From a virus (Duplodnaviria > Heunggongvirae > Uroviricota > Caudoviricetes), in IMG/VR virus record IMGVR_UViG_3300032053_000007: a stretch of DNA of 64,000 nucleotides; one strand, 5' to 3'. This document shows, piece by piece, positions 3,079 through 51,948 of the stretch. The notes beneath the pieces are model-generated. The model had not been told where the DNA came from, did no database searches, and worked only from the letters and a program-made list of their open reading frames with translations. Made by a program: the position numbers and the translations under genes. Position 1 is the stretch's first letter, and each line of letters opens with the position of its first letter.

Positions 3079-3108
3079 GCATGGTGTTTTTTACGCAAGA
3101 TTTATATA
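3076..3108 (+). promoter_or_regulatory. GAGCATGG-box/TATA promoter cassette
   Basis: tGAGCATGGtgtTTTT..TTTATATA; offset 24. Confidence 0.65.
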
Positions 3109-12304: not shown

Positions 12305-12555
12305 TCAAGATAGGAATTAGGTGGGTAATAAATTTTCCCATCAAAACATGGTATTTCTTTATAGTTCAATTCTTTACAACAAAAGTACCGATGATGACCA
12401 TTCAGAATTATGGCTTTTCCATCTTCACGAAACATTACTCGCAAAGGCTCTTTTAATCCATTAACTCGAATATCTTCAAGTAATACCTTCTCAACTTTGG
12501 GATTTCCTCTTGGAATTATTTTGTCTATGGGAACCATAATTATAGGGATTTTCAA
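12286..12555 (-). CDS. ParB/sulfiredoxin-like N-terminal domain protein (nuclease-type)
   Basis: PLRV..ILNGHHRYFCC..IPC; TTG start in junction. Confidence 0.65.
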   Translation of the reverse strand: MKIPIIMVPIDKIIPRGNPKVEKVLLEDIRVNGLKEPLRVMFREDGKAIILNGHHRYFCCKELNYKEIPCFDGKIYYPPNSYLDYPKSI

Positions 12556-12671
12556 GTGAACTGCACCTTAGTTTTTTCTTTTATATGTTTACAATTCTCA
12601 CAGAGCCATCGTGTCGTCTTTGGCTTCTTGTATAATACTTGAACATCTTTGCCACACCCATCGCAAATCAA
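12552..12671 (-). CDS. zinc-ribbon VxFT-tail mini-protein (39 aa)
   Basis: CDGCGK..CENC; ends TKVQFT; ovl at both ends. Confidence 0.55.
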   Translation of the reverse strand: MICDGCGKDVQVLYKKPKTTRWLCENCKHIKEKTKVQFT

Positions 12672-12850
12672 GTGAACTCGACCTTCTCTCCAAGTTCTCT
12701 ATAACCACATTCTTTAATTTGACCTTTACTTTTACAAGTGCATTTTTTACAAAGACAAACAGAAAGTCCTTTTGACACACTTTCCTCACACACTATATCA
12801 CCTTTACAGAAAAATTCTTTTCCACAATCAACACATTTCATTTTTATCAA
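12668..12850 (-). CDS. ZR-F family zinc-ribbon mini-protein
   Basis: CVDCGKEFFCKGDIVC..CLCKKC; ends EKVEFT. Confidence 0.65.
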   Translation of the reverse strand: MIKMKCVDCGKEFFCKGDIVCEESVSKGLSVCLCKKCTCKSKGQIKECGYRELGEKVEFT

Positions 12851-13274: not shown

Positions 13275-13481
13275 ATGAATCCCCTCAAGAAACTCTGGAA
13301 TCTTTTCATTACTCTACAGCTTTCTCTAATGTGGTGGCTTCTAACGGCTGTGATTCTTTTCAATTACTTTGGGTTTCTGGGATTGGTATGGGCGTTTTTT
13401 ATCATGTATTATGCCCGATACGCTAAACGAGAAGACCTCAAAAAGATGAGAGAAACCGCAAGGTTTATTAGTGACCGATAG
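13275..13481 (+). CDS. small membrane protein (2 TM)
   Basis: two hydrophobic helices. Confidence 0.55.
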   Translation: MNPLKKLWNLFITLQLSLMWWLLTAVILFNYFGFLGLVWAFFIMYYARYAKREDLKKMRETARFISDR

Positions 13482-15229: not shown

Positions 15230-15301
15230 GGTAAACAAAAACCTATAAGATGAACCGAAAGATTTATATATTAGTTAGAAGTATATAAGTTTGTGATTTC
15301 A

Positions 15302-15845: not shown

Positions 15846-15878
15846 TGAGTATGGAGTTTCTAGCGCAAGGTTTATAAG
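15846..15878 (+). promoter_or_regulatory. GAGCATGG-box/TATA promoter cassette
   Basis: tGAGTATGGagtTTCT..TTTATAAG; offset 24; heads array 1. Confidence 0.65.
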
Positions 15879-15910: not shown

Positions 15911-16153
15911 ATGAGCGACAATCGTAAAACCCCATTCGGAAAACTCAACAGACGAGCAGAGCAAATTGCTGGTGATATTGATACAAAGAAGTTGGAAGAC
16001 GAGATTGGTGAGGCATTAGCAGATGCATGGCAAGCTGGCTATGACGAAGGATGCGGTACAGCACATGATGAGGGTTATCAGGAAGGAAAGGCAGAGGGCA
16101 TAAGGGAAGCCGAAGAGAAGTTTAAAGCCAAAGAGAAAGTGACGTTCACATGA
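15911..16153 (+). CDS. acidic VxFT-tail mini-protein
   Basis: ends EKVTFT, ovl ATGA. Confidence 0.6.
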   Translation: MSDNRKTPFGKLNRRAEQIAGDIDTKKLEDEIGEALADAWQAGYDEGCGTAHDEGYQEGKAEGIREAEEKFKAKEKVTFT

Positions 16154-16287
16154 TGAAGCCACCGAAAGAATGTTTTGTTTGTAGAGGAATTGGTTACGTG
16201 ATAGAAAGAAATCCAGACCCAAAAGGAGATAGATGGATTAGAGTTATGTGTAGAAGATGTAAAGGAGCGGGGTTTCTGAGAGAATGA
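16150..16287 (+). CDS. DnaJ-type CxxCxGxG zinc-finger mini-protein (45 aa)
   Basis: CFVCRGIG and CRRCKGAG; ATGA overlap at both ends. Confidence 0.55.
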   Translation: MMKPPKECFVCRGIGYVIERNPDPKGDRWIRVMCRRCKGAGFLRE

Positions 16288-16502
16288 TTCATTGTGAATG
16301 GAGAGGGTGTTCTAAGAAATCGGAATATGTTATCAATTGGAAAAACGAGCCTAGACCAATAATCATTGAACCTTTTGCGGACCATAACTTTCTTTGTGGA
16401 ACACACTTCAAAAAATTACAGCATGATTTTCCTGAGACAAAACAGAAACCTATAGAAATCTATGAACTTACAGACCCAGTTATAAAGGTGACATTTACTT
16501 GA
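16284..16502 (+). CDS. VxFT-tail mini-protein
   Basis: ends IKVTFT, ovl TTGA. Confidence 0.6.
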   Translation: MIHCEWRGCSKKSEYVINWKNEPRPIIIEPFADHNFLCGTHFKKLQHDFPETKQKPIEIYELTDPVIKVTFT

Positions 16503-16735
16503 ACTTTGACAAAATAAGGGCTGGCGACATTGTAATGTTCGAGCGAGAAGGAAAAATGCTTCATGGCAGAGTGTCAGCTAAAGGTTATCGTTATGTTGTT
16601 AGACCATTTGTGAATACTGATGAGCCAATTCTTTTCATTAGAGTGATTGAACATCCAGAATGGAAGGAAATAACTTTGTCTAGTAAAGAAGTAAAAAATA
16701 TTATCACAATAGGAGAAGTAGTGCATTTCACATGA
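16499..16735 (+). CDS. VxFT-tail mini-protein
   Basis: TTG start; ends EVVHFT. Confidence 0.6.
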   Translation: MNFDKIRAGDIVMFEREGKMLHGRVSAKGYRYVVRPFVNTDEPILFIRVIEHPEWKEITLSSKEVKNIITIGEVVHFT

Positions 16736-16833
16736 ACAGAAAAGATATAGACTATCCTCTCATCTTTAGACGACTTCGCTGGTTTAAACGACTTGCTAAA
16801 GAATATCAGAAAGAAAAGGTGCAGTTCACATGA
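16732..16833 (+). CDS. VxFT-tail mini-protein (33 aa)
   Basis: ends EKVQFT; ovl at both ends. Confidence 0.5.
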   Translation: MNRKDIDYPLIFRRLRWFKRLAKEYQKEKVQFT

Positions 16834-17102
16834 CAATCATACTTAAAAAGAACTTCAAGAAATGTCCTATGTGCGGCTCACGAAATTTAGCCCCTCATCT
16901 TCATAGCCAACATACTGAAAAGGAAGTACCGTGGGTTCGTTGCGAAGATTGTACGGCAATGTTTGTTAGAAGTTGTTCAAGTAATTCCCCAACAGAATCT
17001 ATTGTTATTTGGAATCGTAGAGGAAATGGCACTAAAATTGAGCCTGAAAGCACTAGCGTCTTTGTAACGCCAGAAGACCCAGAGGTTGTGCATTTTACAT
17101 GA
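16830..17102 (+). CDS. Lar-like (restriction-alleviation family) zinc-ribbon protein
   Basis: KCPMCGS..VRCEDC..IVIWNRR pattern; ends EVVHFT. Confidence 0.5.
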   Translation: MTIILKKNFKKCPMCGSRNLAPHLHSQHTEKEVPWVRCEDCTAMFVRSCSSNSPTESIVIWNRRGNGTKIEPESTSVFVTPEDPEVVHFT

Positions 17103-17347
17103 TTGGGTCAACTATTGCTAATATAAGAAAAGACGGACACACTAGATGTGTAGCAATGCATGGTCGGAGTGACCAATGCCCAAAAGAGGCAGAATTCTTA
17201 CTTTACTATAAAATACAAGGAAGAGTTAATGTTGAACCGTTTTGCGAAGATGACGCATATGAATTCTCAATGTATTTCTCGAATTATCTAGGGCTAAAAG
17301 TAATAATCGAAGAGATGAGACTTAAAGAGAGGGTACAATTTACATGA
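17099..17347 (+). CDS. Cys-rich VxFT-tail protein (paralog of 18682)
   Basis: AYEFSMYFSNYLGLKV shared; ends ERVQFT. Confidence 0.6.
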   Translation: MIGSTIANIRKDGHTRCVAMHGRSDQCPKEAEFLLYYKIQGRVNVEPFCEDDAYEFSMYFSNYLGLKVIIEEMRLKERVQFT

Positions 17348-17595
17348 TGAAGAGACCATGTGACAAGTGCAATAATATGTCTGATGCGTTAGTAAGAGTA
17401 CATCCAATTGATAAAAATGGACAAAATTTGGAAACTGTTTATCTTTGCCCAAATTGTCGTGCGGCGTGGGGAAAAGTTTATGATAAGGAAGTAAAGAATG
17501 TTGATTCTATTAAATTCCAAAGTGCGTGGACTAATTCTTGGGAAAACTTTATGAGTGGGAAATATGAAGAACGAGAAGTGGTGCAGTTTACATGA
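17344..17595 (+). CDS. ZR-W family zinc-ribbon mini-protein
   Basis: CDKC..CPNCRAAW; ends EVVQFT. Confidence 0.65.
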   Translation: MMKRPCDKCNNMSDALVRVHPIDKNGQNLETVYLCPNCRAAWGKVYDKEVKNVDSIKFQSAWTNSWENFMSGKYEEREVVQFT

Positions 17596-17774
17596 GTGCT
17601 GAACCAGTTCTTTTAACGCATCCTTCTAAACTGAACGTTAAATGGAGTATTTCGGGATGCACAGTACATAATTCGCTTAACAAAGAATATTGCATAAAAT
17701 CTTGCAGAATAAGAGAACATTGTACGGTTTATGTGTCAATTATGAATGAACGGGAGAAGGTTCAATTCACATGA
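17592..17774 (+). CDS. VxFT-tail mini-protein
   Basis: ends EKVQFT. Confidence 0.55.
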   Translation: MSAEPVLLTHPSKLNVKWSISGCTVHNSLNKEYCIKSCRIREHCTVYVSIMNEREKVQFT

Positions 17775-17998
17775 AACAACTCAAAGTTTTGCATTATGAT
17801 AAAGATTGTGGTTTGGTTCGTTTGACTACGCGAGAACATAGGTCTATACATTCTAATATTTGTTTCGGTTGTGGATATAATGGAGCAATAAAATGGAATT
17901 CTTATAACAAAGTTGTTCAATGTCACAATTGCGGACAGATAATAGCTAAACCAGAAAGTCATCCAGAATTAGAACGAGAGGTAGTGCAATTTACATGA
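17771..17998 (+). CDS. zinc-ribbon VxFT-tail mini-protein
   Basis: CFGCG..CHNCG; ends EVVQFT. Confidence 0.6.
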   Translation: MKQLKVLHYDKDCGLVRLTTREHRSIHSNICFGCGYNGAIKWNSYNKVVQCHNCGQIIAKPESHPELEREVVQFT

Positions 17999-18210
17999 CT
18001 GAACTACTAATTATTGGAATGATAAGTACAATTTGTGGTCTAATTATTGCAATGGTATTAGAGGCAAAAAGACAAAAACGCAAAATGATAAAAAGAGTAA
18101 GAATATATATCAAAGACCGTAATAAAACTTTACGTCTTTCAAAATGGAAAAGAATTGCTACTGAATGGAGAGAAGAATTAAAGAGACCTGTAAAGGTGAA
18201 GTTTACATGA
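17995..18210 (+). CDS. N-terminal-TM VxFT-tail mini-protein
   Basis: hydrophobic N-terminus; ends VKVKFT. Confidence 0.6.
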   Translation: MTELLIIGMISTICGLIIAMVLEAKRQKRKMIKRVRIYIKDRNKTLRLSKWKRIATEWREELKRPVKVKFT

Positions 18211-18560
18211 GCAAATTTTTACGGGCATATCTAGTTCAGGGTAACAAGAAATATGAGGGGATTTCATCAGTCGATATGACAGTAAAAGTGAATGGTGGCG
18301 ACATTTGGGAAATCGAACTTAAAATAGATAACGCACAGAAATTATGTAAAGATTGTGATAATAACAAAATGTTCAGGCTTCATATAGAAAGTACATCAAT
18401 GAAGGATTCAAAACCAATGATTGAAACTACTACAGGGGAAATACTAATAACTGAGATTGAATTTTTATCACAAACTCAATGTCGTGTAAATGGAATCGCA
18501 TCTAATATACGTTGGGCTTCCAGAGAAGGAATCACTAGAGAAAAGGTGCAATTTACGTGA
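18207..18560 (+). CDS. VxFT-tail protein
   Basis: track ORF 18165.. trimmed to junction ATG 18207; ends EKVQFT. Confidence 0.55.
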   Translation: MSKFLRAYLVQGNKKYEGISSVDMTVKVNGGDIWEIELKIDNAQKLCKDCDNNKMFRLHIESTSMKDSKPMIETTTGEILITEIEFLSQTQCRVNGIASNIRWASREGITREKVQFT

Positions 18561-18685
18561 AGTCAAAGTTATTTGATAATTGGGATACAGAAATTCAATA
18601 CAAAGCTAGAGTAATAGATTGGATGCTTGTTGTTGCAATTTGGAGACAGAACAAACACAGAAGGGAAAAGGTGCAGTTTACTTGA
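18557..18685 (+). CDS. VxFT-tail mini-protein (42 aa)
   Basis: GTG in junction ACGTGA; ends EKVQFT. Confidence 0.45.
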   Translation: MKSKLFDNWDTEIQYKARVIDWMLVVAIWRQNKHRREKVQFT

Positions 18686-18930
18686 ATGGTCGTGTTTTAA
18701 CCTGTTGTCTCGCGGTTGATTGTAGAAAAGAATCAGAGATTATTTTGTCATACAAAATGGTGCGAAGCGAAGGGAGCACTCGTGAATTTGCTACAAAAAT
18801 AACACATATATGCCACGATGAATTTTGTGAAGAACATGCTTATGAGTTCGGTATGTATTTTTCAAATTACTTAGGACTAAAAGTAAGAACAAAGAGAATA
18901 AATAGACCAGTAAAGGTGCAGTTTACATGA
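18682..18930 (+). CDS. Cys-rich VxFT-tail protein (paralog of 17099)
   Basis: track ORF 18619.. trimmed to junction TTG; ends VKVQFT. Confidence 0.6.
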   Translation: MNGRVLTCCLAVDCRKESEIILSYKMVRSEGSTREFATKITHICHDEFCEEHAYEFGMYFSNYLGLKVRTKRINRPVKVQFT

Positions 18931-19157
18931 AACGATGGTATCATAAAAAGTGTTGTTATTGCCATTGCAGTTTTATGTGTCACGGAGAATGTGGAATAGA
19001 ACTTAAAGCTAAACAAGAAACTGCTTGCTATTGTGGGGCTTGCATTCAAGAATTTGAGAGAGAGAAGGGTGGCAGAGAAATTGTCTCTGGAAAAGAGCGT
19101 TGTAGAAGTAGAATGGATTTTGGAATTGATGCAAAGGAGAAGGTGGAATTCACATAG
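18927..19157 (+). CDS. Cys-rich VxFT-tail mini-protein
   Basis: ends EKVEFT but stop is TAG (ACATAG), junction start lost. Confidence 0.6.
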   Translation: MKRWYHKKCCYCHCSFMCHGECGIELKAKQETACYCGACIQEFEREKGGREIVSGKERCRSRMDFGIDAKEKVEFT

Positions 19158-19201
19158 CTCTCAATACTTTTGGTTTAAAATTCAACTTCACTAAATGCCC
19201 T

Positions 19202-19405
19202 ATGTGCCATTCACGAAATATAGAAAAGAAAGAAGTATGTATGGAATGTAAAGATTGTCATGCTCAGTTTGTTCGAAGAGTACATCTTTTCGACAAAGAA
19301 TCATTGACGTGTATTTGGAATAGAAAAACAGATGGGACATATTTTGAGCATAGCAACAAAGTTTTTATAGTACCAGAGGACCCAGAGGTAGTGCAGTTCA
19401 CATGA
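19202..19405 (+). CDS. Lar-like zinc-ribbon protein, N-terminally compromised paralog of 16830
   Basis: homology continues upstream (FNFTKCPMC) to ATA 19154; first ATG removes first Cys; ends EVVQFT. Confidence 0.45.
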   Translation: MCHSRNIEKKEVCMECKDCHAQFVRRVHLFDKESLTCIWNRKTDGTYFEHSNKVFIVPEDPEVVQFT

Positions 19406-19692
19406 CTGTTTGGATTTGTCCGTTCTGTAAAAGTGAACTGATATTTACTGGAAAACGAAATGGCATAGGTTGGTTTGGAGATTTAGGCGCGAGTTTCTAT
19501 GCTTGTGAGTGCGGGCACAATATTATTAGCGAGGCATTCAAAAATGAAGATGGGACTCCAAAGATTTTCTATGATAATAAATGGGAACATCTTCTTAATG
19601 ACAAATGGAGATTTTATGATGAAAGGGATATGTGGGGAACGCCTAAAGATGTGCCGAAAGAATTAAAGAGAATAAAGGTGCAGTTTACTTGA
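19402..19692 (+). CDS. zinc-ribbon VxFT-tail protein
   Basis: CPFC..CECG; ends IKVQFT. Confidence 0.6.
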   Translation: MTVWICPFCKSELIFTGKRNGIGWFGDLGASFYACECGHNIISEAFKNEDGTPKIFYDNKWEHLLNDKWRFYDERDMWGTPKDVPKELKRIKVQFT

Positions 19693-19868
19693 CTGAATAT
19701 AAATGTACTTGTTGCACACTTACCAAAGGATGCATATTACGGACTAACAAACATGGAGAAATTTTTTGCACTCATGGTGGTAAAAGTATCAAAATTCCAA
19801 TTGAAAGGGAAATAAAACGTGGGGATTTAAAAGTGATAATACCGAGAGAGGTAGTGCAATTCACATGA
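19689..19868 (+). CDS. Cys-rich VxFT-tail mini-protein (59 aa)
   Basis: TTG junction start; ends EVVQFT. Confidence 0.5.
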   Translation: MTEYKCTCCTLTKGCILRTNKHGEIFCTHGGKSIKIPIEREIKRGDLKVIIPREVVQFT

Positions 19869-20104
19869 GAGCTAATTGGCTTAAAGGTAGAAAATGTGAC
19901 CGTTGTGGAAAAGAATCTGAATTGGTTTTAGGCAAATTTGAACATTTTCTTTGCAGAGAATGTAGTACAGAATGGGGTAATTTTATACAACCATTTCTTT
20001 CCAAACTTCATGATGTAGCGAGAACTCCTAAATGGTCTGAATTATGGGAAAAAATTTACGCCAAGTTTTTGGCTGAATGGATAGAGAAGGTACAATTCAC
20101 TTGA
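19865..20104 (+). CDS. ZR-W family zinc-ribbon mini-protein
   Basis: CDRCGK..CRECSTEW; ends EKVQFT. Confidence 0.65.
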   Translation: MRANWLKGRKCDRCGKESELVLGKFEHFLCRECSTEWGNFIQPFLSKLHDVARTPKWSELWEKIYAKFLAEWIEKVQFT

Positions 20105-20385
20105 CCGAAGAAATAAATCTTGAAAACCTCATTATTAAGGTGCGAAAAAGTACGCCTAAAAATCATAGACGAGCAAAAATTTGGGTTAAAAAAGGTTCGG
20201 CTAAAGTGGAGATTACTGACCAAGAAAAGTGGCTTAATGTAGAAGATATGTGTTGCGTTCTTAATCACGAGTTTCTTCATTGGATAATTACAAATATGAC
20301 AAAAACAAGACCTAAACAATATGACAAATACTTAGAGAGTCTTGGATTGTACTACCACGAAATATTAAGGGAAATATGGCAATAA
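20101..20385 (+). CDS. small HExxH metallopeptidase-like protein
   Basis: track ORF 20077.. trimmed to junction TTG; VLNHEFLHWI. Confidence 0.55.
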   Translation: MTEEINLENLIIKVRKSTPKNHRRAKIWVKKGSAKVEITDQEKWLNVEDMCCVLNHEFLHWIITNMTKTRPKQYDKYLESLGLYYHEILREIWQ

Positions 20386-20564: not shown

Positions 20565-20978
20565 GCATATACCAACTTTCTCTGGGATAGTCCCCTACCC
20601 CTAGCTCCCCTAGACGTTCAAAACTCCCTGAAAAAAAGACGTTTTCAGTTATTTTCTTTTCTCGAATCCTTAGTAAATCTAAATCGAAATGCTCAGGAAA
20701 TAGGAAATAAAAATAATACCAAAATAACAATCATAACAGAAATCACAAAGTTCGCCGACCAAAATCAAATTTTCGCCTGCGCGCCGCCTATGTGTGGGTA
20801 TGTGGTTTCAAAAAGTGTGACCGATGGTTTTTTCCTAAAGGTTTTTCTGCGTTACCCTTTTCCGTGTTTCCGTCTGGGTCACTTTCGAGGTTACGGTTAG
20901 TGTAACTTTCTGTGTCATTGAAAGTTCAACTCTTCCTTATATAATACGAGTTGCACCATATAAACCTTTCGGTAGTTA

Positions 20979-20994
20979 TTAATCAACTGATTAA
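20979..20994. promoter_or_regulatory. TTAATCA-NN-TGATTAA palindrome
   Basis: ttaatcaactgattaa. Confidence 0.55.
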
Positions 20995-21042
20995 AAGTTT
21001 GGGGCATGGAGCCGAGGGGGTGGAAAAAAGCCATCTGACCCC

Positions 21043-21174
21043 CGAACTGAATCGAACTCGGCAATACGAGCAAATTTCGGGGCGATTTGGCTCCCGCCCT
21101 TTCCCACCGAGAAAATTTCCCATAGGGTGAGTTTCGAACTGAGTCGAATTTCCGAAAACGAGCAAATTTCGAGG
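21043..21174 (+). repeat. two 40-nt imperfect direct repeats (period 92)
   Basis: cgaactgaRtcgaa..acgagcaaatttcgRgg at 21043-21082 and 21135-21174. Confidence 0.6.
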
Positions 21175-21311
21175 CAGATAATTTTTACAGGTCTCGCAAA
21201 TGACCATCACTTTTTTGCTGGTTGGGGATGTTTGTATGGAGAGAATGGCTTTCGAAATTTTTCGAAGTGCCAAAAAAGCTCCCAACCCTGCTGGTCATGG
21301 AAACCGAATGT

Positions 21312-21327
21312 TTAATCAACTGATTAA
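21312..21327. promoter_or_regulatory. TTAATCA-NN-TGATTAA palindrome
   Basis: ttaatcaactgattaa. Confidence 0.55.
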
Positions 21328-21392
21328 AATAGTTCCTTTTATGACCTTCGGCATGGAGAAGTCCATGCAAACCAGCGATACTCATAGGGTTT

Positions 21393-21425
21393 TGAGCATG
21401 GGAGTTCTTACTAAACCTTTATATA
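21393..21425 (+). promoter_or_regulatory. GAGCATGG-box/TATA promoter cassette
   Basis: tGAGCATGGgagTTCT..TTTATATA; offset 24. Confidence 0.65.
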
Positions 21426-21459
21426 GGGGAAAGCTATATCTCTAGGTAGTGACCGATTA

Positions 21460-44619: not shown

Positions 44620-44847
44620 GTGAAATATAAAAGACATTGCACACATTGTAAGAACAATTTTTTCTGCAACGGAAAATGCAAAAGTGATAGACTTAAAAAT
44701 CCGAATGACTGTTATTGTCTTGAGTGTGTAAAAAAAGTTTCGGAAGAGTTTTCAAAGTTGTCTGGGGCAGACTCTACTTATGAATCTTTTAACGTTGTTC
44801 AATTTCATTGCCAAGAATCGGGCAGAGAAGAAGTGCAATTTACTTAA
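44620..44847 (+). CDS. ZR-F family zinc-ribbon mini-protein
   Basis: CTHCKNNFFCNGKC..CYCLEC; ends EEVQFT with TAA and no downstream gene. Confidence 0.65.
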   Translation: MKYKRHCTHCKNNFFCNGKCKSDRLKNPNDCYCLECVKKVSEEFSKLSGADSTYESFNVVQFHCQESGREEVQFT

Positions 44848-44985: not shown

Positions 44986-45873
44986 ATGAACTCAGAATTT
45001 GAAAAGATTCATGCAAAGGTCGAATCAGCACTTGAAGGTGCTGGCATCTACGTCAAAGGCATCGAGTTCGTGGACGAACATGGCTACATTGAAAAGTCAA
45101 GAGCGATTCTTGAAATTGTCGGCAACCTTAGATTAGTCGGCGAAACGGGGACGGGCAAAACAACTCTTGTTCACAAGTTGGCTGAATTGTTAGAGGTTCC
45201 GCTTTTTGAAATTGTCTTAACACGGGACGTGACAAAGTGGGATTTGCTGGCATGTGATACTCTGAAAGCTGGAAGCACAGAAACAAGAGATGGAATCATA
45301 ATTCAATGGTTGAACAGCGAGAAAGGTCTGCTTTACATAGACGGGTTCAACTATGCAGAACCATCGATAATTTCACTTCTGGAATCATTGGCAGACTTTA
45401 GGGGAAACGTGTATATTCCAGAATACAAGAAGCAATTCACACGGACAGCACAGCACTATCTCGTTATCAGCTATAACCCCTCAGAAAAATCGGGTTACTC
45501 TGGGACATTCATCGAGAACATTGCAACCATTAGACGATTTGAAGGTCTGATAATCGAATACCTTAGCCCCCAGAAAGAACGCGAATTGGTAAAGAAGTTC
45601 TCTGGAAACTATGACTTTTCTGCGAAGTTCGTAGAAATTGCCAAAAAGACGCGAACCGAATACGAGAACGGAAAACTTAGAACGCCCCTCACGACAGGCA
45701 ACCTAATAAACTACGGCAAACTCTACAAAGCGAAGATGTCCGAAGAGGACATAATCGATATAGCAAGTTCGCTTTACACCGCAAGAGAAGAGCGCAATTT
45801 ATTTAGGTCGTTCTTCGAAGATAGCTCTGAGATAGACGTAGAAAAGTTGAAAAAGAAAGAAGAGGATACCTAA
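44986..45873 (+). CDS. AAA+ ATPase, MoxR/CbbQ/CobS-like (AAA_5 type)
   Basis: Walker A GETGTGKTT; LLYIDGFNYA Walker B region (Gly where Glu is expected); IRRFEG like the MoxR DRF motif. Confidence 0.7.
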   Translation: MNSEFEKIHAKVESALEGAGIYVKGIEFVDEHGYIEKSRAILEIVGNLRLVGETGTGKTTLVHKLAELLEVPLFEIVLTRDVTKWDLLACDTLKAGSTETRDGIIIQWLNSEKGLLYIDGFNYAEPSIISLLESLADFRGNVYIPEYKKQFTRTAQHYLVISYNPSEKSGYSGTFIENIATIRRFEGLIIEYLSPQKERELVKKFSGNYDFSAKFVEIAKKTRTEYENGKLRTPLTTGNLINYGKLYKAKMSEEDIIDIASSLYTAREERNLFRSFFEDSSEIDVEKLKKKEEDT

Positions 45874-51695: not shown

Positions 51696-51907
51696 TTCAA
51701 CTAACAAAAACCGATTATAATATTTGTATTTCATCAATAAGCTATTATAGTTGCACTAATTGTTGGAAAAACAGCCTAAAAGTTTATCGTTTGAAAGGAA
51801 AAGTACAAGAAAGAGGAAAAATTGGCATAACTTTAACGTGGCTCTGCCCTGACTGTTTCGAAAAAATCATCAAAAAGAAAGACATAGAACAGGTTCAATT
51901 TACATAA
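51692..51907 (+). CDS. zinc-ribbon VxFT-tail mini-protein
   Basis: CTNC..CPDC; ends EQVQFT with ACATAA (no start formed). Confidence 0.6.
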   Translation: MIQLTKTDYNICISSISYYSCTNCWKNSLKVYRLKGKVQERGKIGITLTWLCPDCFEKIIKKKDIEQVQFT

Positions 51908-51948
51908 ACCATAACCTTTATAAGCAACTTCTACTATTTTATCTTTAG

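What the first reader, a model, noticed from the sequence alone, without database searches (positions are those of the whole stretch)
19141..19204. A decayed junction strands a Lar-like paralog without its start codon
At 19148-19157 the joint reads TTCACATAG instead of TTCACATGA. The stop becomes TAG and the embedded start becomes ATA.

The downstream reading frame still encodes ..FNFTKCPMCHSRN. This is collinear with the N-terminus of paralog 16830 (..NFKKCPMCGSRN). The first in-frame ATG (19202) removes the first Cys of the zinc knuckle.

Two explanations fit. The gene may be initiated non-canonically (ATA, or reinitiation), or it is a fresh pseudogene. Either way it is a natural experiment on how the junction works.
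Basis: seen in the sequence. Interest (0 to 1): 0.5.

Follow-up and report, generated by a model that had tools for sequence, protein, structure and literature searches.

The report
Conserved ATA start at gene junction
A small zinc-ribbon gene in a probable archaeal virus has ATA where its relatives have ATG/GTG/TTG, at a stop/start overlap (ATAG instead of ATGA); the change is old, inherited and the codons after it are still under protein-level selection, so this is most likely a working gene with a non-standard start codon, not a broken one.

Summary
Window 19149-19157 reads TTCACATAG. The upstream gene stops at TAG (19155-57). The Lar-like reading frame opens at ATA (19154), and its first canonical start (ATG 19202) lies after the first zinc-binding Cys.

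The "decayed junction / fresh pseudogene" reading fails:
- The same sequence occurs in at least 9 independent assemblies.
- ACATAG also precedes three diverged orthologs (66-84% aa identity), each behind a different upstream gene. The four form one clade.
- Six other orthologs carry ATGA, GTGA or TTGA at the same position.
- Among three ATAG lineages, the 15 codons between ATA and Met17 show pN/pS of 0.11-0.19 (binomial p 0.0002-0.011).
- The fourth lineage has gained an in-frame ATG ahead of the Cys.
- Upstream of the ATA, the junction is the best consensus match of all 65 in the window.

Best explanation: translation starts at the AUA, at low efficiency, through Shine-Dalgarno-assisted termination-reinitiation inside a 20-gene chain with 4-nt overlaps. 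That translation begins upstream of ATG 19202 is shown. That AUA itself is the start is inferred.

Context: enriched BRE/TATA promoters and a contig binned with Pacearchaeota point to an archaeal virus, so archaeal initiation factors would be involved.

The parts
15864..15878 (+). BRE/TATA-type promoter (CGCAAGGTTTATAAG), 32 nt upstream of ATG 15911. It is the only such motif upstream of the chain that holds the finding.
   Evidence: The pattern occurs 26 times against 2.5 expected. The next + strand match lies beyond 25 kb.
15911..20385 (+). Chain of 20 small genes, each overlapping the next by 4 nt (NTGA). The gene under study is number 16.
   Evidence: chain walk; ORFs.
16830..17102 (+). 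Lar-family paralog (90 aa) with a canonical ACATGA start in the same chain.
   Evidence: PF14354, 31.8 bits, cut-off 28.6; 46% identity to the gene under study.
18927..19157 (+). Upstream gene (76 aa, Cys-rich) ending ..EKVEFT and stopping at TAG 19155-19157.
   Evidence: This gene is absent from the same position in L010, L015 and L018.
19137..19153 (+). Junction core GAGAAGGTGGAATTCAC. It holds the Shine-Dalgarno-like AGAAGGTG (19138-19145) and, 8 nt before the start position, the invariant TTCAC.
   Evidence: matrix from 64 junctions; this one scores 27.5, above all canonical ones.
19154..19157 (+). The variant overlap ATAG. ATA (19154-56) occupies the start-codon position and TAG (19155-57) is the stop of the upstream gene. 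The geometry matches canonical ATGA.
19157..19201 (+). Codons 2-16 (ALNTFGLKFNFTKCP), which include the first zinc-ribbon Cys (19196-98). They are under purifying selection although they have no canonical start.
19154..19405 (+). Full Lar-like zinc-ribbon gene (83 codons plus TGA) ending ..PEVVQFT. It joins the next gene (19402) through a canonical ACATGA.
19202..19204 (+). First in-frame ATG (Met17 of CPMC). Gene callers use it, giving the 67-aa P0001. It is not conserved as Met in the family (Val in L019).

Best explanation
The Lar-like gene 19154-19405 is a functional gene. Its reading frame starts at the AUA that sits exactly where its orthologs have AUG, GUG or UUG.

Proposed mechanism: a ribosome finishing the upstream gene stops at UAG. 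It is held by the strong Shine-Dalgarno-like AGAAGGUG 8 nt upstream, and initiator tRNA then pairs with the near-cognate AUA one base back. This is the same -4 geometry as AUGA. Freshly recruited small subunits may do the same. The downstream protein is made with its complete N-terminus and four-Cys zinc ribbon, probably at a much lower rate than its neighbours.

History: the ATGA-to-ATAG change happened once in an ancestor. It travels with the downstream gene when cassettes are shuffled at the junction repeats, and it has been tolerated or selected since.

Status of each step:
- Shown: the joint is real, old and clade-specific; the frame is intact; codons 2-16 are under protein-level constraint.
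- Inferred: AUA itself is the initiation codon, Met-tRNAi is used, initiation is coupled to upstream termination, and output is low.
For: 1. The same joint occurs in 9 assemblies.
2. ACATAG also lies upstream of the orthologs in L010-12, L015 and L018/L039. Their upstream genes belong to different families.
3. The ATAG lineages form a clade in a tree built only from the gene body (235 of 300 bootstraps).
4. Ten orthologs carry ATA x4, ATG x4, GTG x1 and TTG x1 at the homologous position, so the start codon at this junction is evolutionarily labile.
5. For codons 2-16, pN/pS is 0.11-0.19 among window, L010 and L015, with binomial p of 0.0002-0.011. Variable sites by codon position are 4/6/11.
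6. There is no in-frame canonical start between the preceding stop and the ATA in the window, L015 or L018. Met17 is Val in L019.
7. Codon 2 changed from AGY (Ser) to GCY (Ala), a conservative choice given that the overlap forces G at its first base.
8. The junction upstream of the ATA is the best consensus match in the window. The region is unstructured (z +1.37).
9. 24 of 64 junctions already use TTG, so weak starts are routine here.
10. Published background. Coupling at -4 overlaps works by termination-reinitiation in Haloferax and E. coli, and the last 15 nt of the upstream gene suffice (PMC10666635). AUA initiates at 1-2% of AUG in E. coli (bioRxiv 10.1101/063800).
Against: - In an E. coli coupling reporter without a Shine-Dalgarno sequence, AUGA-to-AUAA abolished downstream translation (PMC9955659).
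- IF3 in bacteria and aIF1 in archaea destabilise complexes on non-AUG codons (PMC2268962; PMC6237735).
- No AUA start at a junction was found for any other gene family in 130 kb of this virus group, so it is an exception and not a property of the junction.
- L018 has gained an in-frame ATG at codon 10 and its first 9 codons look relaxed (pN/pS 0.35-0.63). This suggests AUA is a poor start that lineages escape from.
- There is no expression or N-terminal data.
- The selection tests rest on 15 codons and 3-4 lineages.
Confidence: 0.6

Rival explanations
1. Fresh pseudogene or truncated product. The start was lost, so the gene is dead or yields only a 67-aa protein from ATG 19202 that lacks the first Cys.
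For: No canonical start lies before 19202. Gene callers report 67-, 54- and 55-aa products. AUA failed as a restart codon in one E. coli system.
Against: Four lineages with saturated synonymous divergence keep ATAG, the frame and 83-84 codons. Codons 2-16 have pN/pS of 0.11-0.19. Met17 is not conserved across the family. A start at 19202 would destroy an invariant four-Cys ribbon: C15, C18, C32 and C35 are invariant.
Confidence: 0.07
2. Initiator-independent restart. After release at UAG the ribosome is not recycled. It shifts to the overlapping frame and resumes elongation with Ile-tRNA or Ala-tRNA, so no start codon is needed.
For: Unrecycled ribosomes restart in all frames at non-start codons in RRF-deficient E. 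coli (PMC9955659; PMC2268962). The uniform TTYAC and Phe-Thr tail at every junction has no explanation from Shine-Dalgarno pairing alone.
Against: 121 of 125 junctions followed by a gene keep ATG, TTG or GTG. That shows strong selection for a start codon at the junction. Such restarts are seen only when recycling is disabled.
Confidence: 0.12
3. Frameshift fusion. A -1 shift at ACA-UAG fuses the upstream protein to the Lar-like protein.
For: The two frames differ by -1, and a stop codon in the A site can stimulate shifting (general knowledge).
Against: There is no slippery heptamer: A-CAU-AG / UUC-ACA-UAG. The upstream partner differs in all four ATAG lineages, so no fusion product could be conserved. 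The orthologs are stand-alone genes.
Confidence: 0.04
4. Sequencing or assembly error. The true sequence would be ACATGA.
For: None beyond the rarity of the variant.
Against: The joint is identical in 9 assemblies from ENA, JGI and Logan samples that differ elsewhere. The same ATAG is present in three diverged lineages.
Confidence: 0.01

Closest known systems
Translational coupling by termination-reinitiation at -4 nt overlaps (NTGA), shown in Haloferax volcanii and E. coli (Huber et al., PMC10666635; review PMC12548453)
   Same: There is a four-base stop/start overlap and a Shine-Dalgarno-like element inside the last ~15-20 nt of the upstream gene. The genes sit in a long polycistronic series.
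   Different: The overlap here is ATAG, so the start position holds AUA, which is not a recognised start codon. The stop is UAG instead of UGA. Dependence on upstream translation was not tested.
Genes with conserved near-cognate starts, such as infC AUU (cited in PMC2268962), and AUA at 1-2% of AUG in E. coli (bioRxiv 10.1101/063800)
   Same: A conserved non-AUG/GUG/UUG codon sits at the homologous start position and is followed by constrained coding sequence. The expected effect is low or regulated output.
   Different: No regulatory logic is known here. The machinery is probably archaeal (aIF1/aIF2) and not IF3. Initiation would occur in an overlap context.
Start-Associated Sequences of cluster K mycobacteriophages (PMC3203893)
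   Same: A conserved short sequence that includes the ribosome-binding site is repeated immediately upstream of many start codons in one viral genome.
   Different: The repeat here lies inside the preceding gene and so imposes a shared E-K/R-V-x-F-T C-terminus. It is present at about 64 junctions in 64 kb and always sits in a 4-nt overlap. Homology to SAS was not tested.
Lar restriction-alleviation family (Pfam PF14354; PHROG 599)
   Same: It is a small CPxC...CxxC zinc-ribbon protein. The paralog at 16830 passes the Pfam threshold, and all eight family members give PF14354 as their most frequent hit.
   Different: The gene under study scores only 14.4 bits on its own (cut-off 28.6). No activity is known for this branch, and the host is probably an archaeon.

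Membership tests
Lar_restr_allev (PF14354) | Score at or above Pfam's gathering cut-off (28.6 bits) | tested here: not met
   14.4 bits, E 0.046 for 19154-19402. The paralog at 16830 scores 31.8 bits, and the two are 46% identical, E 4e-23. Membership therefore holds only by transitive homology.
Lar_restr_allev (PF14354) | Four-Cys zinc ribbon (CxxC ... CxxC) | tested here: met
   C15, C18, C32 and C35 are invariant in the 8-sequence alignment. The AF2 core (residues 11-40) has pLDDT of about 77, but the whole model is poor (56) and has no PDB match.
Lar_restr_allev (PF14354) | Alleviates restriction of incoming DNA | not testable with these tools
   No functional data are available.
Termination-reinitiation coupled gene pair (-4 overlap) | Stop of the upstream gene and start position of the downstream gene share a 4-nt overlap | tested here: met
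   ATA is at 19154-56 and TAG at 19155-57. The register matches the 64 canonical junctions.
Termination-reinitiation coupled gene pair (-4 overlap) | Canonical start codon (ATG, GTG or TTG) in the overlap | tested here: not met
   The codon is ATA in the window, L010, L015 and L018.
Termination-reinitiation coupled gene pair (-4 overlap) | Shine-Dalgarno-like element within the last ~15-20 nt of the upstream gene | tested here: met
   AGAAGGTG at 19138-45 matches 7 of 8 positions of the complement of the conserved 16S 3' end (that complement is from my own knowledge). The matrix score is the highest in the window.
Termination-reinitiation coupled gene pair (-4 overlap) | Downstream translation depends on upstream translation | not testable with these tools
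   This needs a two-reporter assay with a premature stop in the upstream gene.
Pseudogene | Frame disruption or in-frame stops | tested here: not met
   Intact frames of 83-84 codons from the ATA in all four ATAG lineages.
Pseudogene | Relaxed selection (pN/pS near 1) on the stranded part | tested here: not met
   pN/pS is 0.11-0.19, p 0.0002-0.011, for window, L010 and L015. It is relaxed only in comparisons with L018, which has a new ATG at codon 10.
Gene with a conserved near-cognate start codon | Same non-canonical codon conserved at the position homologous to the orthologs' start codons | tested here: met
   ATA aligns with ATG, GTG or TTG in six orthologs. The four ATA lineages form a clade.
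Gene with a conserved near-cognate start codon | Mapped protein N-terminus or initiating ribosome | not testable with these tools
   No proteomic or ribosome-profiling data are available.
Archaeal virus or element (context) | BRE/TATA promoters at a fixed distance upstream of first genes | tested here: met
   CRNAANNTWTAWWWR occurs 26 times against 2.5 expected. TTTATATA occurs 31 times against 4.7. Thirteen of the 22 + strand sites lie 22-39 nt before a start codon. The sigma-70 scan is not enriched.
Archaeal virus or element (context) | Host assignment | tested here: inconclusive
   The only hint is a 1.9-kb contig with three junctions binned in a Pacearchaeota MAG. There are no tRNAs or Rfam hits, no hallmark capsid or terminase gene was identified in the window, and nothing matches known phages or IMG/VR.

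The most novel reading that the evidence does not exclude
In this virus-host system the junction motif (a Shine-Dalgarno-like element plus the invariant TTYAC / Phe-Thr tail) holds the terminating ribosome so firmly in register that reinitiation largely bypasses start-codon proofreading. On this reading AUA works nearly as well as AUG, and the high TTG usage (38%) and the ATG/GTG/TTG/ATA turnover within one ortholog group are both symptoms. The ATAG clade would then be natural evidence for start-codon-relaxed reinitiation in archaea.
Probability: 0.15. Interest if true: 0.75.

Novelty: new variant of a known kind. Interest (0 to 1): 0.5.

Why it matters
Overlapping stop/start codons are the commonest gene spacing in bacteria and archaea, yet how the ribosome restarts there is still disputed. 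It is also unclear how strictly the restart needs a start codon.

This locus offers a matched natural series. It is one gene, with one junction sequence, carrying ATG, GTG, TTG or ATA at the same position in related genomes. One lineage has in addition "repaired" itself with a new internal ATG.

These variants can go straight into reporter assays in Haloferax or E. coli. That would measure what the start codon contributes to reinitiation when a strong Shine-Dalgarno element is present.

There is also a practical point. Public protein databases hold this gene as wrongly truncated or extended products of 67, 54, 55 and 99 aa. Standard gene callers mis-annotate genomes of this type.

Tried and rejected
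- Sequencing error is rejected, because the joint is identical in 9 assemblies.
- TAG reassignment is rejected. TAG ends 28 of 185 crude genes, including large ones.
- An alternative in-frame start upstream does not hold. ATT at 19148 is present only in the window and L018 and is GTT in L010 and L015. The ATG at -15 exists only in L010.
- A stronger Shine-Dalgarno element compensating for the weak start is not supported. ATAG junction scores are 27.5, 28.7, 18.2 and 22.6, against 17.0-25.8 for canonical orthologs.
- An RNA structure at the joint is absent (z +1.37).
- The structure route was uninformative. The AF2 model has mean pLDDT 56, and Foldseek against the PDB gave nothing with E below 1.
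- Searches of known phages (megablast and tblastn) and IMG/VR (protein patterns and the junction 21-mer) found nothing.
- Ten IMG/VR hits to a degenerate ATAG pattern are chance matches. Those loci contain no other junctions.
- Bacillus and Bathyarchaeota hits to the junction 21-mer are single matches and probably chance.
- The second ATAG motif at 45324-45340 lies inside the AAA ATPase gene at its Walker B strand, so it is treated as coincidence.
- Pfam scans of 20 larger ORFs gave no host-diagnostic family.
- Literature searches found no described AUA start at an overlap in a phage or archaeal virus, and no description of this junction repeat. This covers the open-access library only.

Full report
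**1. The observation**

TTCACATAG occupies 19149-19157.
- The upstream ORF 18927-19157 (76 aa, Cys-rich) reads ...GAG AAG GTG GAA TTC ACA TAG, i.e. ..EKVEFT-stop.
- One base before the TAG, the overlapping frame reads ATA GCT CTC AAT ACT TTT GGT TTA AAA TTC AAC TTC ACT AAA TGC CCT ATG TGC. This gives I-ALNTFGLKFNFTKCPMC.
- That frame is closed upstream by TGA at 19127-29. It has no ATG, GTG or TTG before ATG 19202.
- ATG 19202 is the Met inside the CPMC knuckle, so a product starting there lacks Cys15.
- Translated from the ATA, the gene is 46% identical (E 4e-23) to the paralog at 16830-17102 and collinear with it from the N-terminus.
- The paralog passes Pfam's threshold for Lar_restr_allev (31.8 against 28.6 bits). 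The gene under study scores only 14.4 bits on its own.

**2. The joint is a genome-wide device**

- On the + strand, 64 sites TTYAC[A/T/G]TGA separate ORFs of at least 30 codons on both sides. The starts are 39 ATG, 24 TTG and 1 GTG.
- The consensus is GAR-ARG-GTN-NNN-TTY-ACW-TGA, so most small proteins here end in E-K/R-V-x-F-T. Positions -11 (G), -10 (T), -5, -4, -2 and -1 are invariant.
- AGAAGGTG resembles the complement of the conserved 16S 3' end at 7 of 8 positions (my own knowledge of that sequence). It ends 8 nt before the start.
- Genes 15911 to 20385 form an unbroken chain of 20 genes with 4-nt overlaps. The gene under study is number 16.
- Apart from the last two letters, the junction in front of it is the best match to the matrix in the whole window (27.5; the canonical range is 8.3-27.2). 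"Decayed" is therefore the wrong word.

**3. It is not an error and not recent**

- The 67-aa product called from ATG 19202 (P0001) is on record from 15 contigs. Nine loci from nine assemblies (ENA, JGI, Logan) carry exactly the same joint. They differ from the window elsewhere by a SNP, a 333-bp deletion, or one extra gene cassette.
- ACATAG also precedes diverged orthologs in L010-12 (81% aa identity), L015 (84%) and L018/L039 (66%).
- In each case the gene upstream belongs to a different family. L015 has the homolog of window gene 18682-18930 directly upstream. Relative to it, the window has one more cassette inserted, and ATAG has stayed with the downstream gene.
- Six other orthologs have ATGA (L013/14, L017, L020, L021), GTGA (L022) or TTGA (L019) at the homologous position.
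- A neighbour-joining tree was built only from the body of the protein, leaving out the N-terminus and the junction tail. It groups the four ATAG lineages in 235 of 300 bootstraps, as sister to two ATGA lineages. The change therefore happened once and was inherited.

**4. The stranded codons are translated**

- Between the ATA and Met17, pairwise comparisons among window, L010 and L015 give 5-9 synonymous against 3-5 non-synonymous differences.
- That corresponds to pS 0.55-1.0 and pN 0.08-0.14, a ratio of 0.11-0.19. The binomial p against neutrality is 0.0002-0.011. This is the same regime as the rest of the gene.
- Variable sites by codon position are 4/6/11.
- There are no indels or stops.
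- Codon 2 is AGY (Ser) in the ATGA/TTGA orthologs and GCY (Ala) in the ATAG clade. This is a conservative replacement, given that the overlap with TAG forces G at its first base.
- Met17 is Val in L019, so ATG 19202 is not a conserved start.
- C15, C18, C32 and C35 are invariant.
- L018 is the exception that fits the picture. It has gained an in-frame ATG at codon 10, still ahead of Cys15, and its first nine codons look relaxed (ratio 0.35-0.63, not significant). That reads as a repair of a poor start.

**5. How unusual it is**

- I scanned 130 kb of this virus group: the window plus L010, L015, L017, L019-22 and L037-39.
- The strict junction core is followed by ATGA 63 times, TTGA 51 times and GTGA 7 times.
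- ATAG appears 5 times. Four are this gene and one is a chain end.
- NTAA appears 4 times. Three are chain ends without a downstream ORF, and one is a TAATG overlap.
- The AUA start is therefore a peculiarity of one gene clade and not a general licence of the junction.
- TAG is an ordinary stop here (28 of 185 crude genes).
- The RNA around the joint is not structured (z +1.37).

**6. Which translation system**

- The window matches no known phage and nothing in IMG/VR. It has no tRNA or Rfam hit.
- The BRE+TATA pattern CRNAANNTWTAWWWR occurs 26 times against 2.5 expected. None of 100 shuffles reached 26. Twenty-two of the matches are on the gene strand.
- TTTATATA occurs 31 times against 4.7 expected.
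- Thirteen of the 22 + strand sites end 22-39 nt before the first start codon of a gene series. This is the spacing expected for archaeal promoters with short leaders.
- A sigma-70 scan shows no enrichment (41 against 36).
- A 1.9-kb contig with three canonical junctions and homologous genes is binned in a Candidatus Pacearchaeota MAG. This is a weak hint only.
- I conclude that this is probably an archaeal virus or element. The start-codon gatekeeper would then be aIF1 with aIF2/Met-tRNAi and not IF3 with fMet-tRNA (PMC6237735).

**7. Mechanism**

- Termination-reinitiation at -4 overlaps is established in Haloferax and E. coli. It needs the overlap or a very short distance, and the last 15 nt of the upstream gene suffice (PMC10666635).
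- The most economical reading is that the ribosome terminating at UAG, or a small subunit bound at the same Shine-Dalgarno element, places initiator tRNA on AUA.
- AUA gives 1-2% of AUG in E. coli de novo initiation.
- In a Shine-Dalgarno-less E. coli coupling reporter, AUGA-to-AUAA gave no restart (PMC9955659). I therefore expect low efficiency, rescued in part by the strong Shine-Dalgarno element.
- Low output could be tolerated or even useful, because a canonical paralog sits ten genes upstream in the same chain. It could also throttle reinitiation into the four genes that follow. Both points are inference.
- Alternatives:
  - An initiator-independent restart of an unrecycled ribosome cannot be excluded from sequence.
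  - A -1 frameshift fusion has no slippery site, and its upstream partners are not conserved.

**8. Verdict**

The "pseudogene / decay" reading is rejected and the "non-canonical initiation" reading is supported by comparative evidence.
- This is a new variant of a known kind: a -4 overlap coupling site with AUA in the start position, conserved in a clade.
- Its interest is moderate. It mainly offers a ready-made allelic series (ATG, GTG, TTG, ATA and ATA plus internal ATG) for testing start-codon stringency in reinitiation.
- The surrounding genome architecture is the more unusual feature and deserves its own assessment. It combines uniform junctions, a shared C-terminal tail, 38% TTG starts and archaeal promoters.

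Noticed in passing
window 3772-54241, + strand (e.g. 16145, 16825, 19397); also - strand 12555-12680: About 64 gene junctions share the consensus GAR-ARG-GTN-NNN-TTY-ACW-TGA, so most small proteins end in E-K/R-V-x-F-T. Starts are 39 ATG, 24 TTG and 1 GTG. The invariant TTYAC (Phe-Thr) between the Shine-Dalgarno-like element and the start is not explained by Shine-Dalgarno pairing alone. It could reflect a recombination site, a termination context or a C-terminal peptide signal.
   Followed up: partly
window, e.g. 3094-3108, 13457-13471, 15256-15270, 15864-15878, 51910-51924: Archaeal-type BRE/TATA promoter motifs are about tenfold enriched, biased to the gene strand, and mostly 22-39 nt upstream of the first gene of a series. 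With L037 (binned in a Pacearchaeota MAG), this suggests an archaeal virus or element that is unrelated to catalogued phages.
   Followed up: partly
L001 about 400-630, against window 16833: A near-identical strain carries one extra 55-codon gene (…CSICHKEYIYNG…EKKVQFT). It is inserted exactly between two junctions, ahead of the Lar paralog. Likewise, the window has one cassette (18927-19157) that L015 lacks. The unit of gain and loss appears to run from a start codon through TTYAC.
   Followed up: partly
window 44831-44847, 51891-51907; L038 12169-12185; L021 3145-3161; L037 (- strand, about 1250 and 670): At chain ends the E-K-V-x-F-T tail is retained, but the overlap reads TTAA, ATAA, CTAA, GTAA or ATAG and no ORF follows. 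The tail therefore persists without a downstream gene. At 51904 a BRE/TATA promoter follows within 6 nt.
   Followed up: partly
window 45316-45340: A full junction-like motif (GAA AAG GTC TGC TTT ACA TAG, i.e. EKVCFT*) lies out of frame inside the AAA_5 ATPase gene 44986-45873. Its ATA is in frame and encodes the Walker B strand LLYID. This is probably coincidence, but a relic of a gene fusion is not excluded.
   Followed up: partly
window 20565-21459; L003: This stretch of about 0.9 kb has no convincing ORF. It holds a strong sigma-70-like hexamer pair (20918-20945), a - strand BRE/TATA (20957-20971) and a GC-rich hairpin (20775-20799). Strain L003 lacks 333 bp here, starting at 20997.
   Followed up: no
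P0001, P0002, P0004, P0010, P0011 (public protein records): Gene callers mis-delimit this family. They start at internal Met (67, 54 and 55 aa), miss a TTG junction start (P0011), or extend P0002 to an out-of-frame-overlapping upstream ATG (99 aa).
   Followed up: yes
L010 2711-2730: One junction reads ACATAATG, i.e. a TAA stop with ATG in a -1 (TAATG) overlap. This is a second, canonical way of leaving the ATGA form.
   Followed up: no
window 1-64000: Gene size is unusually small. Only 8 ORFs of 250 aa or more occur in 64 kb, and many products are CxxC-rich zinc-ribbon-like proteins of 40-130 aa. No capsid or terminase gene was recognised in the window.
   Followed up: partly
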